Positions 5,173 through 60,818 of a stretch of 64,000 nucleotides of DNA are shown in pieces. Where the stretch lies: the NCBI GenBank assembly GCA_947629935.1, contig CANRFQ010000001.1:22444-86443 (forward strand), in the 5' to 3' direction. Within the stretch, counting starts at the first letter, position 1; every line of letters begins with the position of its first letter. The DNA is from an uncultured Bacilli bacterium (GTDB lineage: Bacteria > Bacillota_I > Bacilli_A > RF39 > UBA660). The notes under the pieces are model-generated. The model was not told the origin of the DNA. It was given only the letters and a program-made list of their open reading frames with translations, and made no database searches. Position numbers and translations under genes: made by a program.

Positions 5173-5249
5173 TGGTAGCGGCGGGGGGATTCGAACCCTC
5201 GACCTATCGGGTATGAACCGAGTGCTCTAGCCAACTGAGCTACACCGCC
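5173..5249 (-). tRNA. tRNA-Met (anticodon CAT), 77 nt with encoded CCA
   Basis: The reverse complement GGCGGTGTAGCTCAGTTGGCTAGAGCACTCGGTTCATACCCGATAGGTCGAGGGTTCGAATCCCCCCGCCGCTACCA folds as a cloverleaf. The GCTCAGTTGG D-arm, TTCGAAT T-loop and CAT anticodon match elongator tRNA-Met of Firmicutes; Ile2(CAU) cannot be excluded. Confidence 0.85.
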
Positions 5250-7699: not shown

Positions 7700-8653
7700 T
7701 TAGAATTTAATTAATTTAATACATGGTTTATATTTGGCTTTGAACTCTTTTACTAAACATCTTGCTTTTTGGTAATCAAATGCTTTTAATTTATCTTTAG
7801 GAATCTTTTTATACTGCGTAACAAAATCATGGCATAAACTATAATCAATTGTTTTAAAGGCAATACTGACTTCTAAAATATCAATAATATTATTTAAGAC
7901 AATGGGTGATAAATTTTGGCTCATTAAAAATTCTTCACATATATTTAAAAATTCATTATCACATACTATGGTTAATAAAATTTCCTGACTATGGCCATTA
8001 TGACTGGCCAAAAAAGTCTCATAATCATGCTCATAATTATCATTTATTATCTTATTTAATATCTTTTTACGCTCATTTACAGGATAAATAGATTTATGAA
8101 AATGATTTTCAATTTGAATATTAGTTTTAAATATTAACTGATTTAATTTCTTGATATCTAACTTTTGCTTTTTTAGTCCCAATTGATACATCCATTCTAC
8201 TTTTTTAAAGGAAGCTTTTAATTGCCATAAATCAAAATAAGTGTATTTATGTGGCCAATAGTTTATTGTTTCATCATTCCTAAACCATTTCTGTAATCGT
8301 TCATTTTCCAAGTCTTTTTTATAGTTTTCCACAAAAAATAAACAATCAATTAACAAATTTTTTATTTCTATAAACAAATTATAATCCATTTTAGCTTGAA
8401 AATGTTTATCATTAAGGCATAAATCTAAAAAAACAAAAAAATTATTATGCATCAAAAATTTAAAATAAGAATTTTTATAGAAATTATTACCTTGATCATC
8501 TTTATTTAAAAATGTTTCTGGATAAAAATAAAATTTTAAAAACAAAAAGTGCTGAGCTGAATTTTCCTTTTGTAATTTGTTTAAAAAATTATTGACTTCC
8601 CTTGTCACCCTAAATCCCCCTAAACAATGTAATATTATATATGATTTTTCCAA
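7700..8653 (-). CDS. Hypothetical cytoplasmic protein (317 aa), no recognisable domain; weak RBS
   Basis: Long clean ORF with protein-like composition. No motif identified. Confidence 0.45.
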   Translation of the reverse strand: MEKSYIILHCLGGFRVTREVNNFLNKLQKENSAQHFLFLKFYFYPETFLNKDDQGNNFYKNSYFKFLMHNNFFVFLDLCLNDKHFQAKMDYNLFIEIKNLLIDCLFFVENYKKDLENERLQKWFRNDETINYWPHKYTYFDLWQLKASFKKVEWMYQLGLKKQKLDIKKLNQLIFKTNIQIENHFHKSIYPVNERKKILNKIINDNYEHDYETFLASHNGHSQEILLTIVCDNEFLNICEEFLMSQNLSPIVLNNIIDILEVSIAFKTIDYSLCHDFVTQYKKIPKDKLKAFDYQKARCLVKEFKAKYKPCIKLIKF

Positions 8654-8692: not shown

Positions 8693-10045
8693 CTATTGTT
8701 CATCTATCTCAGCTGTTACAACTCCAACGAAGGTTCGCCCGGCATCAATATTTTGTTCAGTATTTGTTCCTTCTAGGACAAATGATAAGGTATAGCTTTG
8801 TGTAACATGCGCAGGAATAGTTATACTTCTTTGAATTACACCATTAGATTTAGGTACCGGCCTAAAATCCTGACTAATTCCTCCATTTGTTCCTGTAATT
8901 TTATATTTCAAATGATCTGTTTGAAAATCATTAGAAACATTGGTCCAAACTAAGCGATATTTTAAGTTATAATCAGATTCATTTCTAATAGTAAAATGTC
9001 TATCTTCAATATCTACATGGTCAGGCATATCATTAGGTAAGACATTTATACTTGGAGCTCCAGAGCCCGAATAAGCAATAACTAAATTAGCAGTGACAGT
9101 TACTTCTGAATCTGGTGACCCACCAGGAGTTGGTGATGATCCTTCAGTACTTGATGATGGTCCAGTAACTGATGATGGACCACTCTGTTTTGAAGAATCT
9201 ACGACTTCTTCTTTATTTTTTTCCGTTTCTAAACATCTTTCCGTACATTTTCCTATTCCTTGCGGATCGAGAAGAATATCAGGAATTCCATCTCCATCTA
9301 AATCAAGATTTAAATCCGGTTTACCATCCCTATCAATATCAATGTCAACATCCGCTTTGCCATCTCCATCTAGATCAACATTAGTATCAGGCCAGCCATT
9401 ACCATTAACATCACAGTTTAGACTACATGTTTTCCTTTTTTCTGGTGTTGTGGCATCATGAACAAGATTAAAATCCGCTTTGCCATCTTTATTTTTGTCT
9501 AAATTGAATACGGCTTTTCTATTACCTTTATAATCAATATTCAAATCCGGAATGTTATCTTTATTTATATCAATATTTATATCGTTCCTACCATCTTTAT
9601 TATTATCAATATTTAAATCCGAAATACCATCTTTATCGATATCTTTATTGAGATACCTTTTTTCAATGTAACTTAACGTTACATACATAGTTCCTATAGA
9701 TGTTGCTAAAAAAGTAGCTAAAAATAATAGCAACAAAACAAAACTTTTTTTACGACTTTCAAAACGAAAACTTAAAACATTACTATTTTTTTCGACAGCT
9801 AAATCTTTTGGTAAATACACAATTTGGTCATGCTCTTTATCAATAAGCTCTACACAACTCATAACCCAAGAATTCTTTATATCCGTATTAGGATAAGCAT
9901 CTTGTAATACAGATCTTACCATATCAAATTGTTCATTTTTTAATTCTTTTTTTAAATCATCAAGGTTAATGAATTTTTCTTTAAATTTTTTGTTTACAAA
10001 AATATTTTTATCTTCAGAACTTTTCATTTTATTTCCTACTTTCAT
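8693..10045 (-). CDS. Single-pass membrane protein with thrombospondin-type-3-like calcium-binding Asp repeats, a Ser/Pro/Gly-rich linker and a C-terminal beta-rich domain (a start at the second ATG, 10027, is likely)
   Basis: Repeated DxDxDGxxD units (NIDNNKDGRND, NLDKNKDGKAD, VDLDGDGKADVDIDIDRDGKPDLNLDLDGDGIPD). TM segment FVLLLLFLATFLATSIGTMYV. The GC-rich linker encodes SSKQSGPSSVTGPSSSTEGSSPTPGGSPDS. An RBS precedes the second ATG. Confidence 0.7.
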   Translation of the reverse strand: MKVGNKMKSSEDKNIFVNKKFKEKFINLDDLKKELKNEQFDMVRSVLQDAYPNTDIKNSWVMSCVELIDKEHDQIVYLPKDLAVEKNSNVLSFRFESRKKSFVLLLLFLATFLATSIGTMYVTLSYIEKRYLNKDIDKDGISDLNIDNNKDGRNDINIDINKDNIPDLNIDYKGNRKAVFNLDKNKDGKADFNLVHDATTPEKRKTCSLNCDVNGNGWPDTNVDLDGDGKADVDIDIDRDGKPDLNLDLDGDGIPDILLDPQGIGKCTERCLETEKNKEEVVDSSKQSGPSSVTGPSSSTEGSSPTPGGSPDSEVTVTANLVIAYSGSGAPSINVLPNDMPDHVDIEDRHFTIRNESDYNLKYRLVWTNVSNDFQTDHLKYKITGTNGGISQDFRPVPKSNGVIQRSITIPAHVTQSYTLSFVLEGTNTEQNIDAGRTFVGVVTAEIDEQ

Positions 10046-16515: not shown

Positions 16516-16542
16516 TTAGCACTCTATCTTGACAAGTGCTAA
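16516..16542 (+). promoter_or_regulatory. CIRCE operator (HrcA binding site) TTAGCACTC-N9-AAGTGCTAA upstream of clpB
   Basis: 17/18 match to the CIRCE consensus TTAGCACTC-N9-GAGTGCTAA. It overlaps the -35 TTGACA of the clpB promoter. Confidence 0.8.
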
Positions 16543-16579: not shown

Positions 16580-18685
16580 ATGTATAATCAAAATCCAAAT
16601 CAAGAAGAAAATGTTTTAGAAAAGTATGGACGTAATATTGTTGATGGCGTCAAAAATGGGAAAAATGATCCCGTTATTGGTCGTGATGAAGAAATTCGTA
16701 ATATAACTCGTATTTTGTCTCGTAAAACGAAAAACAACCCCGTTTTAATCGGCGACCCTGGCGTTGGAAAAACTGCTATTGTAGAAGGTCTAGCGCAAAG
16801 AATAGTTAAAGGTGATGTACCTGATTCTTTAAAAAATAAAACTATTTGGGAACTTGACATGGGTGCCTTAATTGCGGGAGCTAAGTATCGTGGTGAATTC
16901 GAAGAAAGATTAAAAGCCGTTTTAAAAAAGATTAAAGAATCAGATGGCGAAATAATTATGTTCATCGATGAAATTCACATGATTGTCGGAGCAGGCGCTT
17001 TAGAAGGTGCAATGGATGCCGGTAATATGTTAAAACCGATGCTAGCACGTGGAGAAATTCATTGTATTGGAGCGACGACACTCAATGAATATCGAAAATA
17101 TATTGAAAAAGATGGCGCCTTAGAAAGACGTTTTCAAAAGATTTTAGTTTCCGAACCAAATGTTGAAGATACAATTACTATTTTACGTGGTTTAAAATCT
17201 CGTTTTGAAGTTTATCATGGTGTTACTATTAAAGATAAAGCCTTAGTCGCTGCTGCTTCTTTATCTGATCGTTATATAACTAATCGTTATCTTCCCGATA
17301 AAGCTATCGATTTAGTTGATGAGGCTTGTGCTACTATTAAAGTGCAAATGGAATCTGTCCCTGTTGATTTAGATGTTTTAACCAAAAAAATTATGCAACT
17401 CCAAATCGAACGCGAGGCTTTAAAAAAAGAAAAAGACGAATTATCTAAAAATCGTTTAAGTGAACTTGATGAAGAAATTGCTAAATTACAAGAAAAAGAA
17501 ACGAAACTTCGCGAAGAATGGAATAATGAAAAAAATCTCAGTACTAATATTAATAAGAAAAAAGAAGAACTAGAAAAAGCTAGCCAAGAATTGGAAATCG
17601 CTGAAAGTACTTACGATCTTGAAAAAGCTGCTAAATTAAGACATGGAACTATTCCAAAATTACAAGAAGAATTGGATAAACTCAAAGAAAGTTCCCAAAG
17701 TAAAATTTTAAGTGATGTGGTCGATGATGAATCTATTGCTGCTATTATTTCTAAATGGACCAATATTCCTATCAGCAAATTAGTTAGTGGCGAAAAAGAG
17801 AAACTAATTAATTTACAAACAAACTTAGAAAAACGCGTTAAAGGTCAAGATCAAGCCTTAAAATTAGTAAGCGAAGCCATCATAAGAGCGCGTAGTGGTA
17901 TTAAAGATCCTAATCGTCCTATTGGTTCCTTTATCTTTTTAGGTCCAACAGGCGTAGGAAAAACCGAAGTAGCTCGCAGTCTAGCCTATGAGCTATTTGA
18001 TGATGAACGGCATATGATTCGTATTGATATGAGTGAATACATGGAAGCTCATAGTGTTTCCCGTTTAGTCGGAGCGCCTCCTGGATATATCGGTTATGAT
18101 GAAGGTGGCCAACTAACAGAAGCCGTCCGCCGAAATCCTTATAGCATAGTTTTATTTGACGAAATTGAAAAAGCTCATAAAGATGTTTTTAATATTCTTT
18201 TACAAATTTTGGATGATGGTCGAATTACTGATTCGCAAGGCCGAACTGTTGATTTTAAAAATACTATTATAATTATGACATCTAATTTAGGAAGCGAATA
18301 TATTTTAGAGGCTAAAGAAAATGCTAATGAATTAATTGATATGCAATTACGTCAAACATTTAAACCAGAGTTTATAAATCGAATAGATGAAATAATTATC
18401 TTTAATAGTTTATCTAAAGAAGTAGTTTATAGTATTTTAGACAAAATAATTAAGGATATTGAATCTCGCTTAAGTGATAAACGTTTAAAATTAGAATTAA
18501 CTCAAGAAGCTAAAGATTACATTATAAATTCAGCTTACGATGAACGATATGGAGCTCGTCCCATCAAACGTTTTGTCGCTCGGAATATCGAAACATTAAT
18601 AGCCCAAAATATCATATTAGATAAAATTAAATTTAACTCTACTATTACAATAGACTACCAAAATGCTAATTTAATTGTAAAATAA
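16580..18685 (+). CDS. clpB: ClpB disaggregase chaperone, naturally lacking the N-terminal domain (701 aa; Mollicutes-like architecture)
   Basis: Two AAA+ modules (GDPGVGKT and GPTGVGKT Walker A) and a long coiled-coil M-domain between them. It starts at the region equivalent to ClpB residue ~150. A CIRCE lies upstream. Confidence 0.9.
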
Positions 18686-20920: not shown

Positions 20921-21240
20921 ATTTATCCCATCCTAAAATCATTGTACTGAATTTCTTTTAAAAAAATTGTTGATTTTAGGATAATTTAAACAGTTATTTA
21001 ACAACATAAGGATCTTGCTCAGTTCCACACTTTTATACCAGCACCTGCAAACTAGTATCAGCCTATATAAATTTTCATGTAGCCGAAAAATTCGTCAGAA
21101 TTTGACGAACGATTTTAATTTAGCTTTATTGTTTAGCTTTTTATAATATTTACTCGAGTGCTATCTGGGGCATCTACCATTTTACATCTTGATAAAACAT
21201 AATCCTATGGGGTTTTGGTTTATAAGGAAGTGGATGTGTT

Positions 21241-21312
21241 ATGAGAAAACTTTTAGATATACCAAAAATGATTATCATTATAAAAATTTTAAATATCCTA
21301 AAAGATATTTAA
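21241..21312 (+). CDS. Conserved 23-codon ORF inside the repeat (MRKLLDIPKMIIIIKILNILKDI); coding status uncertain
   Basis: RBS AAGGAAGTGGA lies 6-9 nt upstream. The reading frame is intact in both copies (copy 2: MKKLLVYLKVIIIIKILNILEDI), but 7 nonsynonymous versus 2 synonymous differences. Confidence 0.25.
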   Translation: MRKLLDIPKMIIIIKILNILKDI

Positions 21313-21397
21313 AATAAAATGACGCCCGTTAGAAAGAGTAATCTTTTTAACATGGCGTCTGCAACAAAAGTGTAGATGCTATTCATTTAGCACTTAC
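21310..21397 (-). ncRNA. Candidate ~85-nt small RNA: consensus promoter (-35 TTGTAA 21427-21432, 17 bp, -10 TATAAT 21404-21409) to intrinsic terminator (GACGCC/GGCGUC outer stem, 10-bp inner stem with GUAA-type loop, U-run)
   Basis: Promoter and first 28 transcribed nt are 100% identical in both copies. The terminator's outer stem is conserved while its inner stem and loop differ by compensatory changes (copy 1 gttagaaaga/tctttttaac; copy 2 acttaa/ttaagt). Confidence 0.35.
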
Positions 21398-21909
21398 ATT
21401 TTTATTATATACTTTCTTTTTTTATTTTACAATTATTTTTTACATTTACTTTTTGTTTCTTCTGTTTAAAATCAAAGTTCTATGCATATTATCATCATTA
21501 ATATTATCTAAATTTTGATTTTTGATAGTTGTAGGTGTTTTAAGGAGATTGCTTAAATGTTCTGATACTACAAATCTAAAAGGATCCCATTCATCAAAAG
21601 TATTAGCATAATCAGTTAAACACTCATGACAGTTTTTAAATGTATGACATCTCCAAGCTGCACTTCCAATCATATCGCCCGGAGCACATACTCCCAATTT
21701 TTTCCATTTGATTATTTTTTCTTCCGGTGTTATTTTTCCTCTTCTATGAATTGCATCTATTTCTTCTTGACTTCAGGGTTTAAATTTTACTGTTGTTACT
21801 TCTTTTATTATTGCCTTCTTTCTATAAAAATATTATATACTATGTATATGATAAAGAAAATATTTTTACATTTTCCTACCAAACATATTTAAAAATTTTG
21901 CATAAAATC

Positions 21910-57433: not shown

Positions 57434-57656
57434 ATTGTCCTCCACAACAATATATGTGAGAAGAAAAATATTTATGCTCTTCATTTGATTTTTAAAGTAT
57501 TAAAAAATCGTCAGAATTTGACGAACGATTTTAATTTATTTTTATTGTCTAGCTTTTTATAATATTTACTCGAGTGCTATCTGGGGCATCTACCATTTTA
57601 CATCTGGGTAAAGCATAATCCTATGGGGTTTTGGTTTATAAGGAAGTGGATGTGTT

Positions 57657-57728
57657 ATGAAAAAGCTATTAGTTTATCTAAAAGTGATTATCATTATAAA
57701 AATTTTAAATATCCTAGAAGATATTTAA
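57657..57728 (+). CDS. Conserved 23-codon ORF, copy 2 (MKKLLVYLKVIIIIKILNILEDI); coding status uncertain
   Basis: Identical RBS context to copy 1. The frame is preserved. Confidence 0.2.
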   Translation: MKKLLVYLKVIIIIKILNILEDI

Positions 57729-57812
57729 ATTAAAATGACGCCCACTTAAGAAGTGATTTTTAAGTATGGCGTCTACAAAAAACAACGTAGATGCTATTCA
57801 TTTAGCACTTAC
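57726..57812 (-). ncRNA. Candidate small RNA, copy 2 (promoter -35 57842-57847, -10 57819-57824; terminator 57735-57774)
   Basis: Same architecture as copy 1. The terminator loop carries compensatory substitutions. Confidence 0.35.
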
Positions 57813-57867
57813 ATTTTTATTATATACTTTCCTTTTTTATTTTACAACTCAAATCTGACAATTTCTT

Positions 57868-59009: not shown

Positions 59010-60818
59010 CTATTCTTTATACAATTTTTTTAAATCTAAAACCAAGCCATCAAAATAGTTAAAGGTGTCTTCAATAGTTTCAGTTTTACTCATATCTACT
59101 CCCACTACTTTTAGAGATTCAATTGGGGTTTTAGTTTGACCAAGTTTCAAAAATTCTAGATATTTTTGAACAATGTCTTTATCACCACTTAATATTTTCA
59201 TAGCAATATTAATAGCTGCGGCGTAAGCTGTAGCATATTGATAAACATAAAAATTCATATAAAAGTGAGGAATTCTTTCCCATTCATATTTTATGATATC
59301 ATCCACTACGATATTTTTTCCGTAATATTCCTTATTCAAATTATAATAAATATCACACAAGCTACTATAAGTTAAAGTTTGACCACTTTGATCTTTTTCA
59401 TGAATAATTTTTTCAAATTCCGCAAACATCGTTTGGCGATATATGGATGCTTTAAAATCTTGGATTAAATCATCTAGTAAATATTTCTTTTCATTTATGT
59501 CTTTCGTATGAGCAATTAAATATTTACTAAGTAAAATTTGATTTACTTGACTAGCTACTTCGGCCACAAATATCGAATATTCATAATCCTGAAAAGCTTG
59601 ATTTTTAATAGCATAATAATAATGCATAGCATGACCTAATTCATGAGCTAAAGTTGACACACTATATAAAGAACCATCAAAACTTAATAAAACATAAGGA
59701 TGGGCATTATAACATACTGTACAATAGGCGCCATTTCTTTTCCCTTTATTAGGACAAAAATCAATCCATCTTTCTGTAAAGGCCTTATTTAAGTCATTAA
59801 TGTAAGTGTCCCCTAAAACATGCAAAGCTTTATTAAGTAATTCTTTAGCGTCCGTTTCGGTATATTTTTTCTTAACCTGTTTAACAATTGGAGCATACGT
59901 ATCATAAATGTGAAGACTTGATAAATGTAAGGCCTCCTTTTTTAAGTGCCAATATTTAGATAATGGAGAAATATTATTTTTTACGGTTTTTATTAAATTA
60001 TCATATATTTCATCAGGAATGTCATTATTATATAAAGAACAATTTAAAGCACTCTTATAACCTCTTATATCAGCTAATCTATTATTTTTATTAACTTCAG
60101 CCATTAATAAAGAAGCATAAGTATTTTTGAAATTACTATAAGTTTCATGCAACTTTTTAAAAGCATTCTTTCTTAATTTTCTATCATTAGATTCTAAAAA
60201 TTTACGATAATTTTGCTCGGATAATTCGATTTTTTGACCTTTTTCATCTTTAATTGAACCAAATGTTAAATCTGCATCAGTTAAAAGTGAATAAACATCA
60301 TCAACTGTTCGAAAAGTACTAGAAACACTAGATAATAGTTTTTCTTCTTTATCACTTAAAATGTATTTTTTTACTTTAAATATATCTTTTAAATTGCGAG
60401 CAAATTCTTGAAGACCATTTTCTTCGGCAATGTATTTCAAGATTAAATCATAATCGTTGCTTAATAGTTCAGGCCCAATATAAGCAGATTCTCTTTTTAC
60501 TTTTTCATAAAGTTTTAAAACTTTACCCATTAGTTCTTGATAAAAAGTATTAGTCGTATCTTGATCATTTTGTAAATGAGCATAAACATATACTTGTTCT
60601 AATTTTTGTTCAAAATCCCTATCAAACTTTAATAAAGCCAGTAAAGATTTCGAACTATCTAAAATGTGTCCTTCATATTTTTTATATTCTTCCACTTGGG
60701 TATCTAAATAATTATAGTCTTCATAAAAATCTTCGATTGTATTATATAAATCTTTAACATTCCATTTTAAATTATCTGCAAACTCTTCTCTTTTTTTTGC
60801 CACTTTCTTTTCCTCCAT
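59010..60818 (-). CDS. pepF: Oligoendopeptidase F (M3B family), located between dnaK and dnaJ
   Basis: HELGHAMH zinc motif. 602 aa. Typical M3B length. Confidence 0.85.

What the first reader, a model, noticed from the sequence alone, without database searches (positions are those of the whole stretch)
21086..21432. A ~345-bp intergenic element present twice (21086-21432 and 57503-57847) carrying a consensus promoter, a candidate ~85-nt sRNA with covarying terminator, a conserved 23-codon ORF and inverted-repeat arms
Both copies are ~88% identical. Substitutions cluster in two places, the terminator loop and the 5' half of the small ORF.
- The minus-strand -35 TTGTAA / 17 bp / -10 TATAAT promoter and the first 28 transcribed nucleotides are 100% identical.
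- The terminator's outer stem (GACGCC/GGCGUC) is kept. Its inner stem differs by compensatory changes that preserve pairing: copy 1 gttagaaaga-GUAA-tctttttaac versus copy 2 acttaa...ttaagt. This is what a functional structured RNA looks like.
- On the opposite strand, a 23-codon ORF keeps its frame and has an RBS (AAGGAAGTGGA), although its 5' half is the most divergent part.
- Segments 21159-21180 and 21370-21392 form imperfect inverted repeats (GTGCTA...GCATCTAC / GTAGATGC...TAGCAC). These resemble CIRCE half-sites (GAGTGCTA / TTAGCACT) but are ~210 bp apart.
- Both copies have the same context. Each lies immediately 3' of a minus-strand operon end (gpr, dnaJ) and 5' of another minus-strand gene (spoIIP, P-type ATPase).
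I could not match it to 6S, tmRNA, RNase P, SRP RNA or a known riboswitch by eye.
Candidate identities are:
- a cis-antisense sRNA with a small peptide (type I TA-like, 3'-overlapping as in txpA/RatA);
- a MITE-like repeat that donates a promoter and terminator;
- a novel trans-acting sRNA family.
Basis: seen in the sequence. Interest (0 to 1): 0.78.

Follow-up and report, generated by a model that had tools for sequence, protein, structure and literature searches.

The report
Two-copy antisense RNA and mini-peptide module
A 346-base unit present twice in this rabbit-gut bacterium most likely carries a small antisense RNA gene facing a 23-codon membrane-type peptide gene, the layout of a type I toxin-antitoxin pair; it is strain-specific, has no known relatives, and is an unproven but fairly ordinary kind of element.

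Summary
There are two copies (21086-21432 and 57502-57847), 89.9% identical, and their 35 differences are significantly clustered.

The repeat runs exactly from a minus-strand -35 box (TTGTAA-17-TATAAT) to a minus-strand terminator.
- **Minus strand:** it predicts an ~80-nt sRNA made of a 5' hairpin, a linker and a strong terminator.
- **Plus strand:** it carries a conserved TATAAT, a gene-quality ribosome-binding site and a 23-codon hydrophobic ORF. The ORF is open in all five variants recovered. A 5'-3' helix of 20 bp includes three G-U pairs that work only on this strand.

The element matches nothing in Rfam, Pfam, NCBIfam, plasmids, phages, viral contigs or JGI metagenomes. Among 185,579 species genomes it occurs only in this species (rabbit-gut 'Bacilli' MAGs).

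Relatives lack it, and so do conspecific strains at locus 1. They carry a ~500-aa surface-protein gene with a poly-G promoter at the same two hot spots. The two copies exchange segments.

Best reading: a new type I toxin-antitoxin-like sense/antisense module with 3' overlap, as in txpA/RatA and bsrG/SR4 (confidence ~0.45).

Rivals:
- an sRNA gene alone;
- a cwpV-like invertible switch;
- a long non-coding RNA;
- neutral duplicated spacer.

No expression or toxicity data exist.

The parts
21404..21432 (-). Copy 1: sigma-A-type promoter of the small RNA (-35 TTGTAA at 21432-21427, 17-nt spacer, -10 TATAAT at 21409-21404). It forms the outer edge of the repeat.
   Evidence: 10 of 12 matches. Identical in all variants. 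Homology with relative L015 stops at 21435.
21312..21398 (-). Copy 1: predicted ~80-nt sRNA. Inferred TSS is about 21397. It has a 5' hairpin (21398-21371, built from the right repeat arm), a variable 11-13-nt linker, a terminator hairpin GACGCC...GGCGUC (21359-21321) and a U-run (21320-21311).
   Evidence: Fold gives -27.3 kcal/mol, z -5.1. A U-G pair in the stem works only on this strand, and 4 pairs change on both sides. A crude terminator scan flags this site.
21287..21314 (.). Copy 1: A/T-rich perfect hairpin TTTTAAATATC-N6-GATATTTAAAA. On the minus strand it acts as a second, weak terminator-like hairpin followed by a U-run. On the plus strand it encodes the C-terminal third of the small ORF and its stop codon.
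   Evidence: One variant (L026) has C-G changed to U-G, which pairs only on the minus strand.
21241..21312 (+). Copy 1: 23-codon ORF (MRKLLDIPKMIIIIKILNILKDI, stop included). This is the divergent allele.
   Evidence: At least 10 of 15 residues are hydrophobic. No Pfam or NCBIfam match.
21224..21234 (+). Copy 1: Shine-Dalgarno-like AAGGAAGTGGA, with 10 nt between AGGAAG and the ATG.
   Evidence: Duplex with the 16S tail is -9.2 kcal/mol. That equals the median of 48 long ORFs and is reached by only 3 of 225 small ATG ORFs in the window (1.3%), two of which are likely this element's own copies. Invariant in all variants.
21143..21148 (+). Copy 1: conserved TATAAT, 8 nt upstream of the left repeat arm. 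It is the candidate -10 box of the peptide mRNA. The -35 box is poor and variable (TTAGCT or TTTATT).
   Evidence: Read. It falls below the threshold of the promoter scan.
21157..21177 (.). Copy 1: left inverted-repeat arm AGTGCTA-TCTGGG-GCATCTAC. It would be the 5' end of the plus-strand RNA. GCATCTAC can also pair with GTGGATGT (21230-21237) beside the ribosome-binding site.
21372..21394 (.). Copy 1: right inverted-repeat arm GTAGATGC-TATTCATT-TAGCACT. On the plus strand it folds into a local hairpin followed by ATTTTTATTAT (to about 21410), a plausible 3' end for the plus transcript.
   Evidence: -14.0 kcal/mol in copy 1, -8.4 in copy 2. The 20-bp 5'-3' helix on the plus strand is seen.
21086..21109 (-). 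Copy 1: terminal intrinsic terminator TTCGTCAAATTCTGACGAA plus T5. It forms the other edge of the repeat.
   Evidence: -8.7 kcal/mol.
57819..57847 (-). Copy 2: sRNA promoter (TTGTAA-17-TATAAT), starting 20 nt after the dnaJ stop codon.
57728..57813 (-). Copy 2: predicted sRNA. The 5' hairpin is the same as in copy 1. The terminator is allele B (GACGCC at 57737-57742, GGCGTC at 57768-57773).
   Evidence: -24.2 kcal/mol, z -4.6.
57657..57728 (+). Copy 2: 23-codon ORF (MKKLLVYLKVIIIIKILNILEDI), the majority allele. Its ribosome-binding site is at 57640-57650.
57573..57593 (.). Copy 2: left inverted-repeat arm. The candidate plus-strand -10 box (TATAAT) is at 57559-57564.
57787..57809 (.). Copy 2: right inverted-repeat arm.
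57502..57524 (-). Copy 2: terminal terminator, about 70 nt upstream of the real start (57433) of the PMCA-type Ca2+ ATPase gene.
20993..21028 (-). 3' remnant (...GTEQDPYVVK*) of the ~500-aa surface-protein gene that occupies this site in conspecific strains. It marks copy 1 as a replacement, not a simple insertion.

Best explanation
The element is a self-contained sense/antisense gene pair of the type I toxin-antitoxin kind, duplicated into two chromosomal hot spots.

**Shown by sequence.**
- A strong minus-strand promoter drives an ~80-nt RNA (5' hairpin, linker, efficient intrinsic terminator).
- Facing it on the plus strand is a 23-codon ORF for a hydrophobic, lysine-studded peptide. It has a ribosome-binding site as strong as those of real genes.
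- A conserved TATAAT sits so that the plus transcript would start at the left repeat arm.

**Inferred.**
- The plus mRNA (~250 nt) runs through the GACGCC hairpin, which has no U-run on this strand. It ends at the hairpin plus U-run formed by the right arm. The whole sRNA is therefore complementary to its 3' end, an overlap of about 80 nt.
- In the full-length mRNA the 5' arm pairs with the 3' arm in a 20-bp helix.
- When the sRNA occupies the 3' arm, two things follow. A long duplex forms that RNase III can cut, as in RatA/txpA. The freed 5' arm (GCAUCUAC) can pair with GUGGAUGU beside the ribosome-binding site and tighten its occlusion, as in SR4/bsrG.
- The peptide would insert into the membrane.
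- The outer terminator insulates the module from its neighbours, and the module's terminators replace those of the upstream operons.
For: - **Repeat boundaries.** The repeat equals a transcription unit, from the -35 box to the terminator.
- **sRNA shape.** It has a classic form, z about -5. Strand-specific U-G pairs and a U-run are on the minus strand only.
- **Ribosome-binding site.** Strength is -9.2 kcal/mol. That equals the median of real genes and is the top 1.3% of 225 small ORFs.
- **ORF.** The 23-aa frame is open in 5 of 5 variants, with synonymous GTG>GTT and CTA>TTA changes. The overlapping 27-aa frame and both minus-strand ORFs are broken in some variant (reading).
- **Hydrophobicity.** The peptide meets the published rule of at least 10 of 15 hydrophobic residues, and the range of 16-70 aa (PMC2887945).
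- **Plus-strand RNA.** The same 251 nt fold 14-19 kcal/mol better on the plus strand, with larger z-scores (-8.0 and -6.2 versus -6.6 and -4.2). The closing helix has three G-U pairs valid only on the plus strand.
- **Plus-strand 3' end.** A hairpin plus U-run is present.
- **Alternative pairing.** The 5' arm can pair with the sequence next to the ribosome-binding site.
- **Distribution.** Two copies, exchange between copies, species-restricted and strain-variable, as is usual for type I loci (PMC2887945, PMC5367252).
- **Precedent.** All Gram-positive type I pairs described by 2014 overlap at their 3' ends. RatA overlaps by about 75 nt, and SR4 remodels the ribosome-binding site from afar (PMC4147584).
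Against: - No expression or toxicity data exist.
- The plus-strand promoter has a poor, variable -35 box and fails the scan threshold.
- The plus-strand terminator is weak.
- The peptide is very short, has two lysines inside its hydrophobic run, and its first ten residues differ at 6 positions between alleles. There is no clear purifying selection.
- I/K/L/N-rich ORFs are the default in 28% GC DNA.
- Predicted change in ribosome-binding-site accessibility is small (0.35 to 0.20, and 0.30 to 0.28).
- The 5' UTR alone is not unusually stable.
- There are no homologues, so no covariation or coding test has any power.
- Identical blocks could reflect gene conversion, not selection.
- No match to any known toxin or antitoxin family.
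Confidence: 0.45

Rival explanations
1. Only the minus strand matters. The element is an sRNA gene (~80 nt, possibly with a ~310-nt read-through form ending at the outer terminator) that acts in trans. The plus-strand ORF is not translated. Its 'ribosome-binding site' is really the complement of a C/U-rich anti-SD seed (CCACUUCCUU, plus ACCCCAU and GCCCCAG), displayed in loops as in RsaE/RoxS-type sRNAs.
For: - The promoter and both canonical terminators are on the minus strand, and the repeat equals a minus-strand transcription unit.
- The C-rich motifs are invariant and predicted to be unpaired.
- Minus-specific G-U pairs occur in three hairpins.
Against: - The C-rich motifs lie downstream of two tandem terminators, and no good internal promoter exists.
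- The only invariant part of the 80-nt RNA is a closed 5' hairpin. Its single-stranded linker varies.
- The plus strand folds better, and its closing helix has plus-only G-U pairs.
- No Rfam match, RsaE included.
Confidence: 0.2
2. The element is a cwpV-like invertible switch. A recombinase flips the ~190-bp segment between the inverted repeats. In the orientation seen here, the strong promoter runs into orientation-specific terminators (OFF). When flipped, the same promoter transcribes the ribosome-binding site and the 23-codon ORF, and possibly beyond (ON).
For: - Imperfect 21-23-bp repeats flank 194 bp, and the promoter lies just outside them.
- Terminator-like sites occur only in the observed orientation.
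- This is the architecture described for cwpV: 21-bp repeats, 195 bp, promoter upstream, terminator in OFF (PMC2784873).
- The ORF lacks a good promoter of its own.
- The element sits where relatives keep phase-variable-looking surface-protein genes.
Against: - The two arms differ by a 6-nt versus 8-nt non-matching core, which is unusual for partner recombination sites.
- All five recovered instances have the same orientation.
- The constitutive outer terminator would still block downstream genes.
- No recombinase was found among the 38 window ORFs scanned.
- A conserved TATAAT placed exactly before the left arm, and plus-only G-U pairs in the arm helix, would be unexplained.
Confidence: 0.1
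3. The element is non-functional, or merely structural, duplicated spacer. An intergenic fragment carrying a promoter and terminators was copied during rearrangements that removed the surface-protein genes. Gene conversion keeps the copies similar. The ORF and long helix are incidental. A MITE-like origin falls under this heading.
For: - It is absent from relatives and from conspecific strains.
- Copy 1 is a replacement that left a gene remnant.
- The copies are mosaics.
- The element is no better conserved between strains (93.8-94.2%) than its flanks (95-97.5%).
Against: - There are no terminal inverted repeats, no target duplications, and only two copies.
- The boundaries coincide exactly with a -35 box and a terminator at both loci.
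- The co-occurrence of a strong promoter, an sRNA-shaped transcript, a gene-grade ribosome-binding site, an open frame in 5 of 5 variants and a 20-bp end-to-end helix is unlikely by chance.
Confidence: 0.12
4. The element is a ~310-nt structured non-coding RNA on the minus strand. A long-range helix closes it, and the first 'terminator' is just an internal hairpin.
For: The closing helix starts 4 nt after the predicted TSS. Fold z-scores are -7.2 and -3.7, and a consensus structure was obtained.
Against: - The internal hairpin is followed by a good U-run, and a second hairpin with a U-run follows it.
- The minus strand folds worse than the plus strand.
- No Rfam family matches.
- The middle of the RNA is the most variable part.
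Confidence: 0.08

Closest known systems
txpA/RatA and bsrG/SR4 (Bacillus subtilis type I toxin-antitoxin pairs)
   Same: - Convergent genes in a Firmicute, with a small hydrophobic peptide.
- The antisense sRNA is complementary to the 3' end of the peptide mRNA, not to its start (about 75-120 nt overlap; about 80 nt inferred here).
- The proposed action is through an RNase III-sensitive duplex and, as with SR4, remote tightening of the helix that hides the ribosome-binding site (PMC4147584).
   Different: - No sequence similarity.
- The peptide is 23 aa, against 59 and 38 aa.
- The sRNA is shorter (~80 nt, against 222 and 180 nt, figures from my own knowledge).
- Not in a prophage or the skin element.
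- The 5'-3' closing helix and the '5'-end mimic' geometry are not described for these systems.
- Toxicity is untested.
Ibs/Sib (QUAD repeats) and Ldr/Rdl (LDR repeats) of E. coli
   Same: These were first noticed, like this element, as multi-copy intergenic repeats. Each repeat is a transcription unit with a tiny hydrophobic ORF on the opposite strand (Ibs is 18-19 aa). They have a narrow taxonomic range (PMC4147584, PMC2887945).
   Different: - Sib covers the whole ORF and the ribosome-binding site. Here only a read-through transcript would do so.
- Proteobacterial, and unrelated in sequence.
hok/sok and aapA1/IsoA1 (mRNA folding control)
   Same: In those systems the toxin mRNA is locked by folding of the full-length transcript that involves its 3' end, and the 3' end controls translatability (PMC5416894 abstract; hok from my own knowledge).
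   Different: - In those systems the antisense RNA targets the 5' region or translation start, and 3' trimming activates the mRNA.
- Here the antisense RNA covers the 3' arm itself, and the predicted effect on the ribosome-binding site is modest.
cwpV phase-variation switch of Clostridioides difficile
   Same: Imperfect ~21-bp inverted repeats about 195 bp apart, the promoter upstream of the repeats, and an intrinsic terminator in only one orientation (PMC2784873).
   Different: - No evidence of inversion and no recombinase identified.
- The arms differ in their internal spacing.
- A second, fixed terminator separates the element from the downstream gene.
par (Fst RNA I / RNA II) of Enterococcus pAD1
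   Same: Convergent promoters about 245 bp apart, a short antitoxin RNA (~65-80 nt) and a small peptide.
   Different: - The central hairpin is not bidirectional: there is no U-run on the plus side.
- The 5' ends are identical, not complementary.
- The duplex energy between the sRNA 5' part and the translation start region is no better than for shuffled sequences.

Membership tests
Type I toxin-antitoxin system (generic definition) | Small peptide (16-70 aa) with a hydrophobic, transmembrane-like stretch (at least 10 of 15 residues from I, V, L, F, C, M, A; PMC2887945) | tested here: met
   23 aa, with 10-12 of 15 hydrophobic residues in all four peptide variants. Two lysines interrupt the stretch.
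Type I toxin-antitoxin system (generic definition) | Antisense RNA gene whose transcript is complementary to the peptide mRNA | tested here: inconclusive
   The sRNA promoter and terminator are predicted with good scores. The overlap depends on the plus transcript reading to about 21400, which is supported only by a weak hairpin plus U-run. No transcript data exist.
Type I toxin-antitoxin system (generic definition) | Peptide is toxic when over-produced, and the RNA prevents this | not testable with these tools
   Needs expression experiments.
Type I toxin-antitoxin system (generic definition) | Translation signals of a real gene on the peptide ORF | tested here: met
   Ribosome-binding site at -9.2 kcal/mol. 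That is the median of long ORFs and the top 1.3% of small ORFs. The frame is open in 5 of 5 variants.
Known toxin or antitoxin families (Fst/Ldr, TxpA/BsrG, Ibs, RatA, SR4 and others) | Sequence or profile similarity | tested here: not met
   No Pfam or NCBIfam hit at E up to 1-10. No Rfam hit at gathering score, and only noise at E up to 10.
par / Fst-type locus | Shared bidirectional terminator, and complementary 5' repeats that cover the translation start | tested here: not met
   No U-run after the hairpin on the plus strand. Duplex energies of -15.5 and -16.1 kcal/mol are no better than shuffled sequences (P = 0.51 and 0.35).
MITE / mobile repeat | Terminal inverted repeats, target-site duplication, many dispersed copies | tested here: not met
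   The inverted repeats are internal, 70 and 40 nt from the ends. The flanks show no duplication. There are two copies in the window and two in the species-representative MAG.
CIRCE / HrcA operator | TTAGCACTC-N9-GAGTGCTAA: a 9-bp inverted repeat with a 9-bp spacer | tested here: not met
   Only the 7-8-nt core is shared, the half-sites are in reversed order, and they lie about 210 bp apart. A genuine CIRCE with 1 mismatch is at 16516-16542 before clpB.
cwpV-type invertible terminator switch | Inverted repeats flanking a ~150-300-bp segment, promoter outside, terminator in one orientation only | tested here: met
   Repeat arms at 21157-21177 and 21372-21394. The promoter is at 21404-21432. Terminator-like sites appear only in the observed orientation (PMC2784873).
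cwpV-type invertible terminator switch | Both orientations present in the population; a cognate recombinase | tested here: inconclusive
   Five of five assembled instances share one orientation, but assemblies report only the majority state. No recombinase was found among 38 scanned ORFs.
Any Rfam family (6S, tmRNA, RNase P, SRP, riboswitches, RsaE and others) | Covariance-model score at or above gathering threshold | tested here: not met
   The only hit in the window is a tRNA at 5176-5249. The best local hit scores 24 bits against a threshold of 52.7.

The most novel reading that the evidence does not exclude
There are two versions of the most novel reading.

(a) The module is a new regulatory design in which the antisense RNA is a copy of the mRNA's own 5' end. 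By taking the 3' arm of a 20-bp end-to-end helix, it releases the 5' arm to shut the ribosome-binding site. That would be a '5'-end mimic' antitoxin.

(b) The inverted repeats are recombination sites, and the element is an invertible switch. It would toggle one strong promoter between making a terminated 80-nt RNA and expressing a 23-aa membrane peptide. It would have been recruited to the same hot spots that hold poly-G phase-variable surface-protein genes in sister strains.
Probability: 0.12. Interest if true: 0.6.

Novelty: new member of a known kind. Interest (0 to 1): 0.35.

Why it matters
If confirmed, this would add a type I toxin-antitoxin-like family in an uncultured, low-GC, spore-forming gut lineage that GTDB places in Bacilli, near the Mollicutes. 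No such systems are described there. Its 23-aa peptide would be among the shortest in Gram-positive bacteria.

It also shows two chromosomal hot spots, gpr|spoIIP and dnaJ|Ca-ATPase, being alternately filled by this module or by phase-variable-looking surface-protein genes. That is useful for understanding strain variation in gut MAGs.

It does not open a long-standing question. Type I loci are known to be abundant, fast-evolving and lineage-restricted.

Tried and rejected
- **Rfam.** The whole window at gathering thresholds, and the element plus the L026 variant at E up to 1-10, gave nothing relevant.
- **Exact-pattern scans for more copies.**
  - Genome contigs with an 18-mer found only the conspecific MAG plus 11 chance hits.
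  - Metagenome contigs with the two-arm pattern found 0. A 20-mer found 6 chance hits in 37-47% GC contigs.
  - Three viral scans found 0.
  - Plasmid and phage blastn found 0.
- **Remote copies.** An nhmmer profile of the element against the window and 30 loci found none.
- **Synteny.** The element is absent at both sites in relatives.
- **Wasted look-ups.** The exact-protein look-up for the window's DnaJ found no record. The last look-up returned only a 968-nt contig.
- **par-like trans pairing** between the sRNA 5' end and the translation start was rejected, because it is no better than shuffles.
- **Minus-strand ORFs** (25 aa and 34 aa) and the overlapping plus-strand 27-aa frame were rejected, because each is broken in at least one variant (reading).
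- **CIRCE identity** was rejected.
- **Leader or riboswitch** for the Ca-ATPase or spoIIP was rejected. The element ends in its own terminator, and orthologous genes in relatives have short, unrelated leaders.
- **Origin from the 5' region of the surface-protein gene.** No similarity to those upstream regions in L014 or L015.
Full report
**1. The observation**

- Both copies exist as described. They are 89.9% identical, 313 of 348 columns. Their 35 differences are strongly clustered (index of dispersion 2.83; 0 of 10,000 random placements reach it).
- A repeat search and a profile search find no third copy in the window.
- The repeat begins exactly at the -35 box of a minus-strand promoter, TTGTAA-17-TATAAT, with 10 of 12 matches in both copies. 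It ends exactly at the T-run of a minus-strand terminator (TTCGTCAAATTCTGACGAA+T5). What is duplicated is therefore a transcription unit.

**2. Where it comes from and how widespread it is**

- The window has 28% GC. It matches, at 95-97.5%, two contigs of a rabbit-gut MAG titled 'uncultured Bacilli bacterium Lapin-008__bin8'. These were the only true hits of an 18-mer scan over one genome for each of 185,579 species. That MAG carries the same two copies at the same two sites.
- JGI metagenomes, viral contigs, plasmids and phages gave nothing beyond chance matches.
- Rfam gives no family at gathering score and only noise at E up to 10.

**3. Context**

- Copy 1 lies between an 83-aa ORF downstream of gpr and spoIIP. 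Copy 2 lies 20 nt after dnaJ (hrcA-grpE-dnaK-pepF-dnaJ) and about 70 nt before a PMCA-type Ca2+ ATPase gene.
- In relatives the ancestral junctions are short. gpr and spoIIP are 63 nt apart in L019. dnaJ and the ATPase gene are 70 nt apart in L030, where dnaJ has its own terminator.
- Other relatives carry at these same two sites a 500-580-aa gene of a paralogous family. It has an N-terminal membrane anchor, a C-terminal ...PVINLKSDVTVTGSG..DPYVV motif and no Pfam domain. Conspecific strains with 99% identical SpoIIP carry it at locus 1.
- The window keeps 35 nt of that gene's 3' end at 21028-20993. Homology with the relative L015 stops at 21435.
- So the element replaced the upstream terminator, the promoter and nearly the whole gene. 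It now supplies the terminators for the upstream operons.
- The element is accessory and strain-variable.

**4. Variants**

- Five versions were recovered: two in the window, two in Lapin-008, and one in ENA contig L026.
- They are mosaics. The hairpin allele of window copy 1 sits in Lapin copy 2, and the ORF allele of window copy 2 sits in Lapin copy 1.
- L026 carries a tandem duplication of the ~145-nt sRNA unit with both hairpin alleles side by side. The units join at a 12-nt near-repeat. That contig has only 2.4x coverage, so a chimera cannot be excluded.
- Exchange between copies means identical blocks need not reflect selection. It also means the 'compensatory' hairpin changes are a single allele difference.

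**5. Minus strand**

- From the inferred start (about 21397) the RNA folds as a 10-bp 5' hairpin, an 11-13-nt variable linker, a strong terminator hairpin and AUUUUAUUUU. Energies are -27.3 and -24.2 kcal/mol, with z -5.1 and -4.6.
- A U-G pair is kept in both hairpin alleles. A C-G to U-G change occurs in the following A/U hairpin. Both are compatible only with the minus strand.
- A crude scan finds two tandem terminator-like sites in this orientation.
- The minus-strand ORFs of 25 and 34 aa are interrupted in copy 2 (reading).

**6. Plus strand**

- A 23-codon ORF is open in all five variants. Two of its changes are synonymous (GTG>GTT, CTA>TTA). The overlapping 27-aa frame is broken in one variant.
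- Its ribosome-binding site pairs with the 16S tail at -9.2 kcal/mol. That is the median for 48 long ORFs and is reached by only 1.3% of 225 small ATG ORFs in the window.
- The peptide is MKKLLVYLKVIIIIKILNILEDI in the majority allele. It passes the hydrophobic-stretch rule used to mine type I toxins (PMC2887945). It matches no Pfam or NCBIfam model.
- A TATAAT conserved in all variants lies 8 nt before the left repeat arm, so a plus transcript would begin at that arm. Its -35 box is poor and variable.
- The central hairpin has no U-run on this strand. The right arm forms a hairpin (-8 to -14 kcal/mol) followed by AUUUUUAUUAU.
- The same 251 nt fold 14-19 kcal/mol better as plus-strand RNA, with stronger z-scores. 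The end-to-end helix reaches 20 bp with three G-U pairs, which become A-C mismatches on the other strand.
- When the 3' part is removed, the 5' arm GCAUCUAC pairs with GUGGAUGU next to the ribosome-binding site in both copies.

**7. Mechanism proposed**

- The module is a convergent sense/antisense pair of the type I toxin-antitoxin kind.
- The abundant sRNA is fully complementary to the last ~80 nt of the peptide mRNA. This is the geometry reported for all Gram-positive type I pairs described by 2014 (PMC4147584).
- Duplex formation would expose the mRNA to RNase III, as in txpA/RatA. It would also free the 5' arm to reinforce occlusion of the ribosome-binding site, as SR4 does for bsrG.
- Shown here: the sequence signals, the folds and the distribution.
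- Inferred: both transcripts, translation, toxicity and the refolding.
- The predicted change in accessibility is small, and the 5' UTR alone is not unusually stable.

**8. Rivals**

- **(a) An sRNA gene only.** The plus-strand 'ribosome-binding site' would be the complement of a C/U-rich seed. The weakness is that the C-rich motifs lie behind two terminators.
- **(b) A cwpV-like invertible switch.** The resemblance is real: imperfect ~21-bp repeats about 195 bp apart, the promoter outside them, and a terminator in only one orientation (PMC2784873). Against it:
  - the arms differ by a 6-nt versus 8-nt core;
  - all five instances share one orientation;
  - a fixed outer terminator follows;
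  - no recombinase was found among the 38 ORFs scanned.
- **(c) Neutral duplicated spacer, or a MITE.** There are no terminal repeats, no target duplications and only two copies.
- **(d) A ~310-nt structured minus-strand RNA.** This is disfavoured by the internal terminators and by the weaker fold on that strand.
- **CIRCE.** Excluded. A canonical CIRCE is at 16516-16542 before clpB.

**9. Verdict**

The most likely identity is a new, lineage-restricted member of a well-known kind, a type I TA-like antisense RNA and mini-peptide module (confidence about 0.45). It was recently copied into two hot spots. Without homologues, no covariation or coding statistics are possible, so the call rests on anatomy. 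Interest is moderate to low (0.35).

Noticed in passing
L014 4746-4778; L015 about 8226-8252 (related loci); genes L014 4811-6547, L015 8288-9835, L028 2-1723, L020 2-1240: A paralogous family of 500-580-aa proteins has an N-terminal membrane anchor, the C-terminal motif PVINLKSDVTVTGSG..DPYVV and no Pfam domain. It occupies the same two hot spots in relatives. Each gene has a run of 9 G inside its promoter spacer (TTGACA...GGGGGGGGGTATAAT). This looks like slipped-strand phase variation of a surface protein. Assemblies of conspecific strains break inside these genes.
   Followed up: partly
window 20993-21028 (minus strand): A 35-nt remnant of the 3' end of that surface-protein gene (...GTEQDPYVVK*) lies between copy 1 and the spoIIP promoter region. 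A further 57 nt (21029-21085) has no match anywhere.
   Followed up: partly
L026 1-760: This conspecific ENA contig (2.4x coverage) has a tandem duplication of the ~145-nt sRNA unit carrying both hairpin alleles. Its first 172 nt are not dnaJ. They contain a long inverted repeat (GATAATGTGATA...TATCACATTATC) of unknown nature. It may be an assembly chimera.
   Followed up: partly
window 16516-16542: A canonical CIRCE operator (TTAGCACTCTATCTTGACAAGTGCTAA, 1 mismatch) lies directly upstream of clpB (16580-18685). This suggests clpB belongs to the HrcA regulon here.
   Followed up: no
window 59010-60818: An oligoendopeptidase F (M3) gene is inserted between dnaK and dnaJ in the hrcA-grpE-dnaK-dnaJ operon. 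The same order is seen in relative L030.
   Followed up: no
window 9260-9649 (in the 450-aa ORF 8693-10045, minus strand): Seven copies of a 36-nt periodic repeat (12-aa units) lie in a protein with no Pfam match. It may be a repeat-containing surface or calcium-binding protein.
   Followed up: no
window 21446-21697 (minus strand): The 83-aa ORF next to copy 1 corresponds to a 120-aa gene in relative L015 (7787-8149). The window version may be truncated or may start differently. It has no Pfam domain.
   Followed up: no
L027 1-283: In the 90%-identical relative, the space upstream of the Ca-ATPase gene holds a different, unrelated set of small hairpins. It also has a promoter-like TATAATAAAATG followed by a 10-bp terminator hairpin. 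Each lineage seems to fill this hot spot with different small elements.
   Followed up: no
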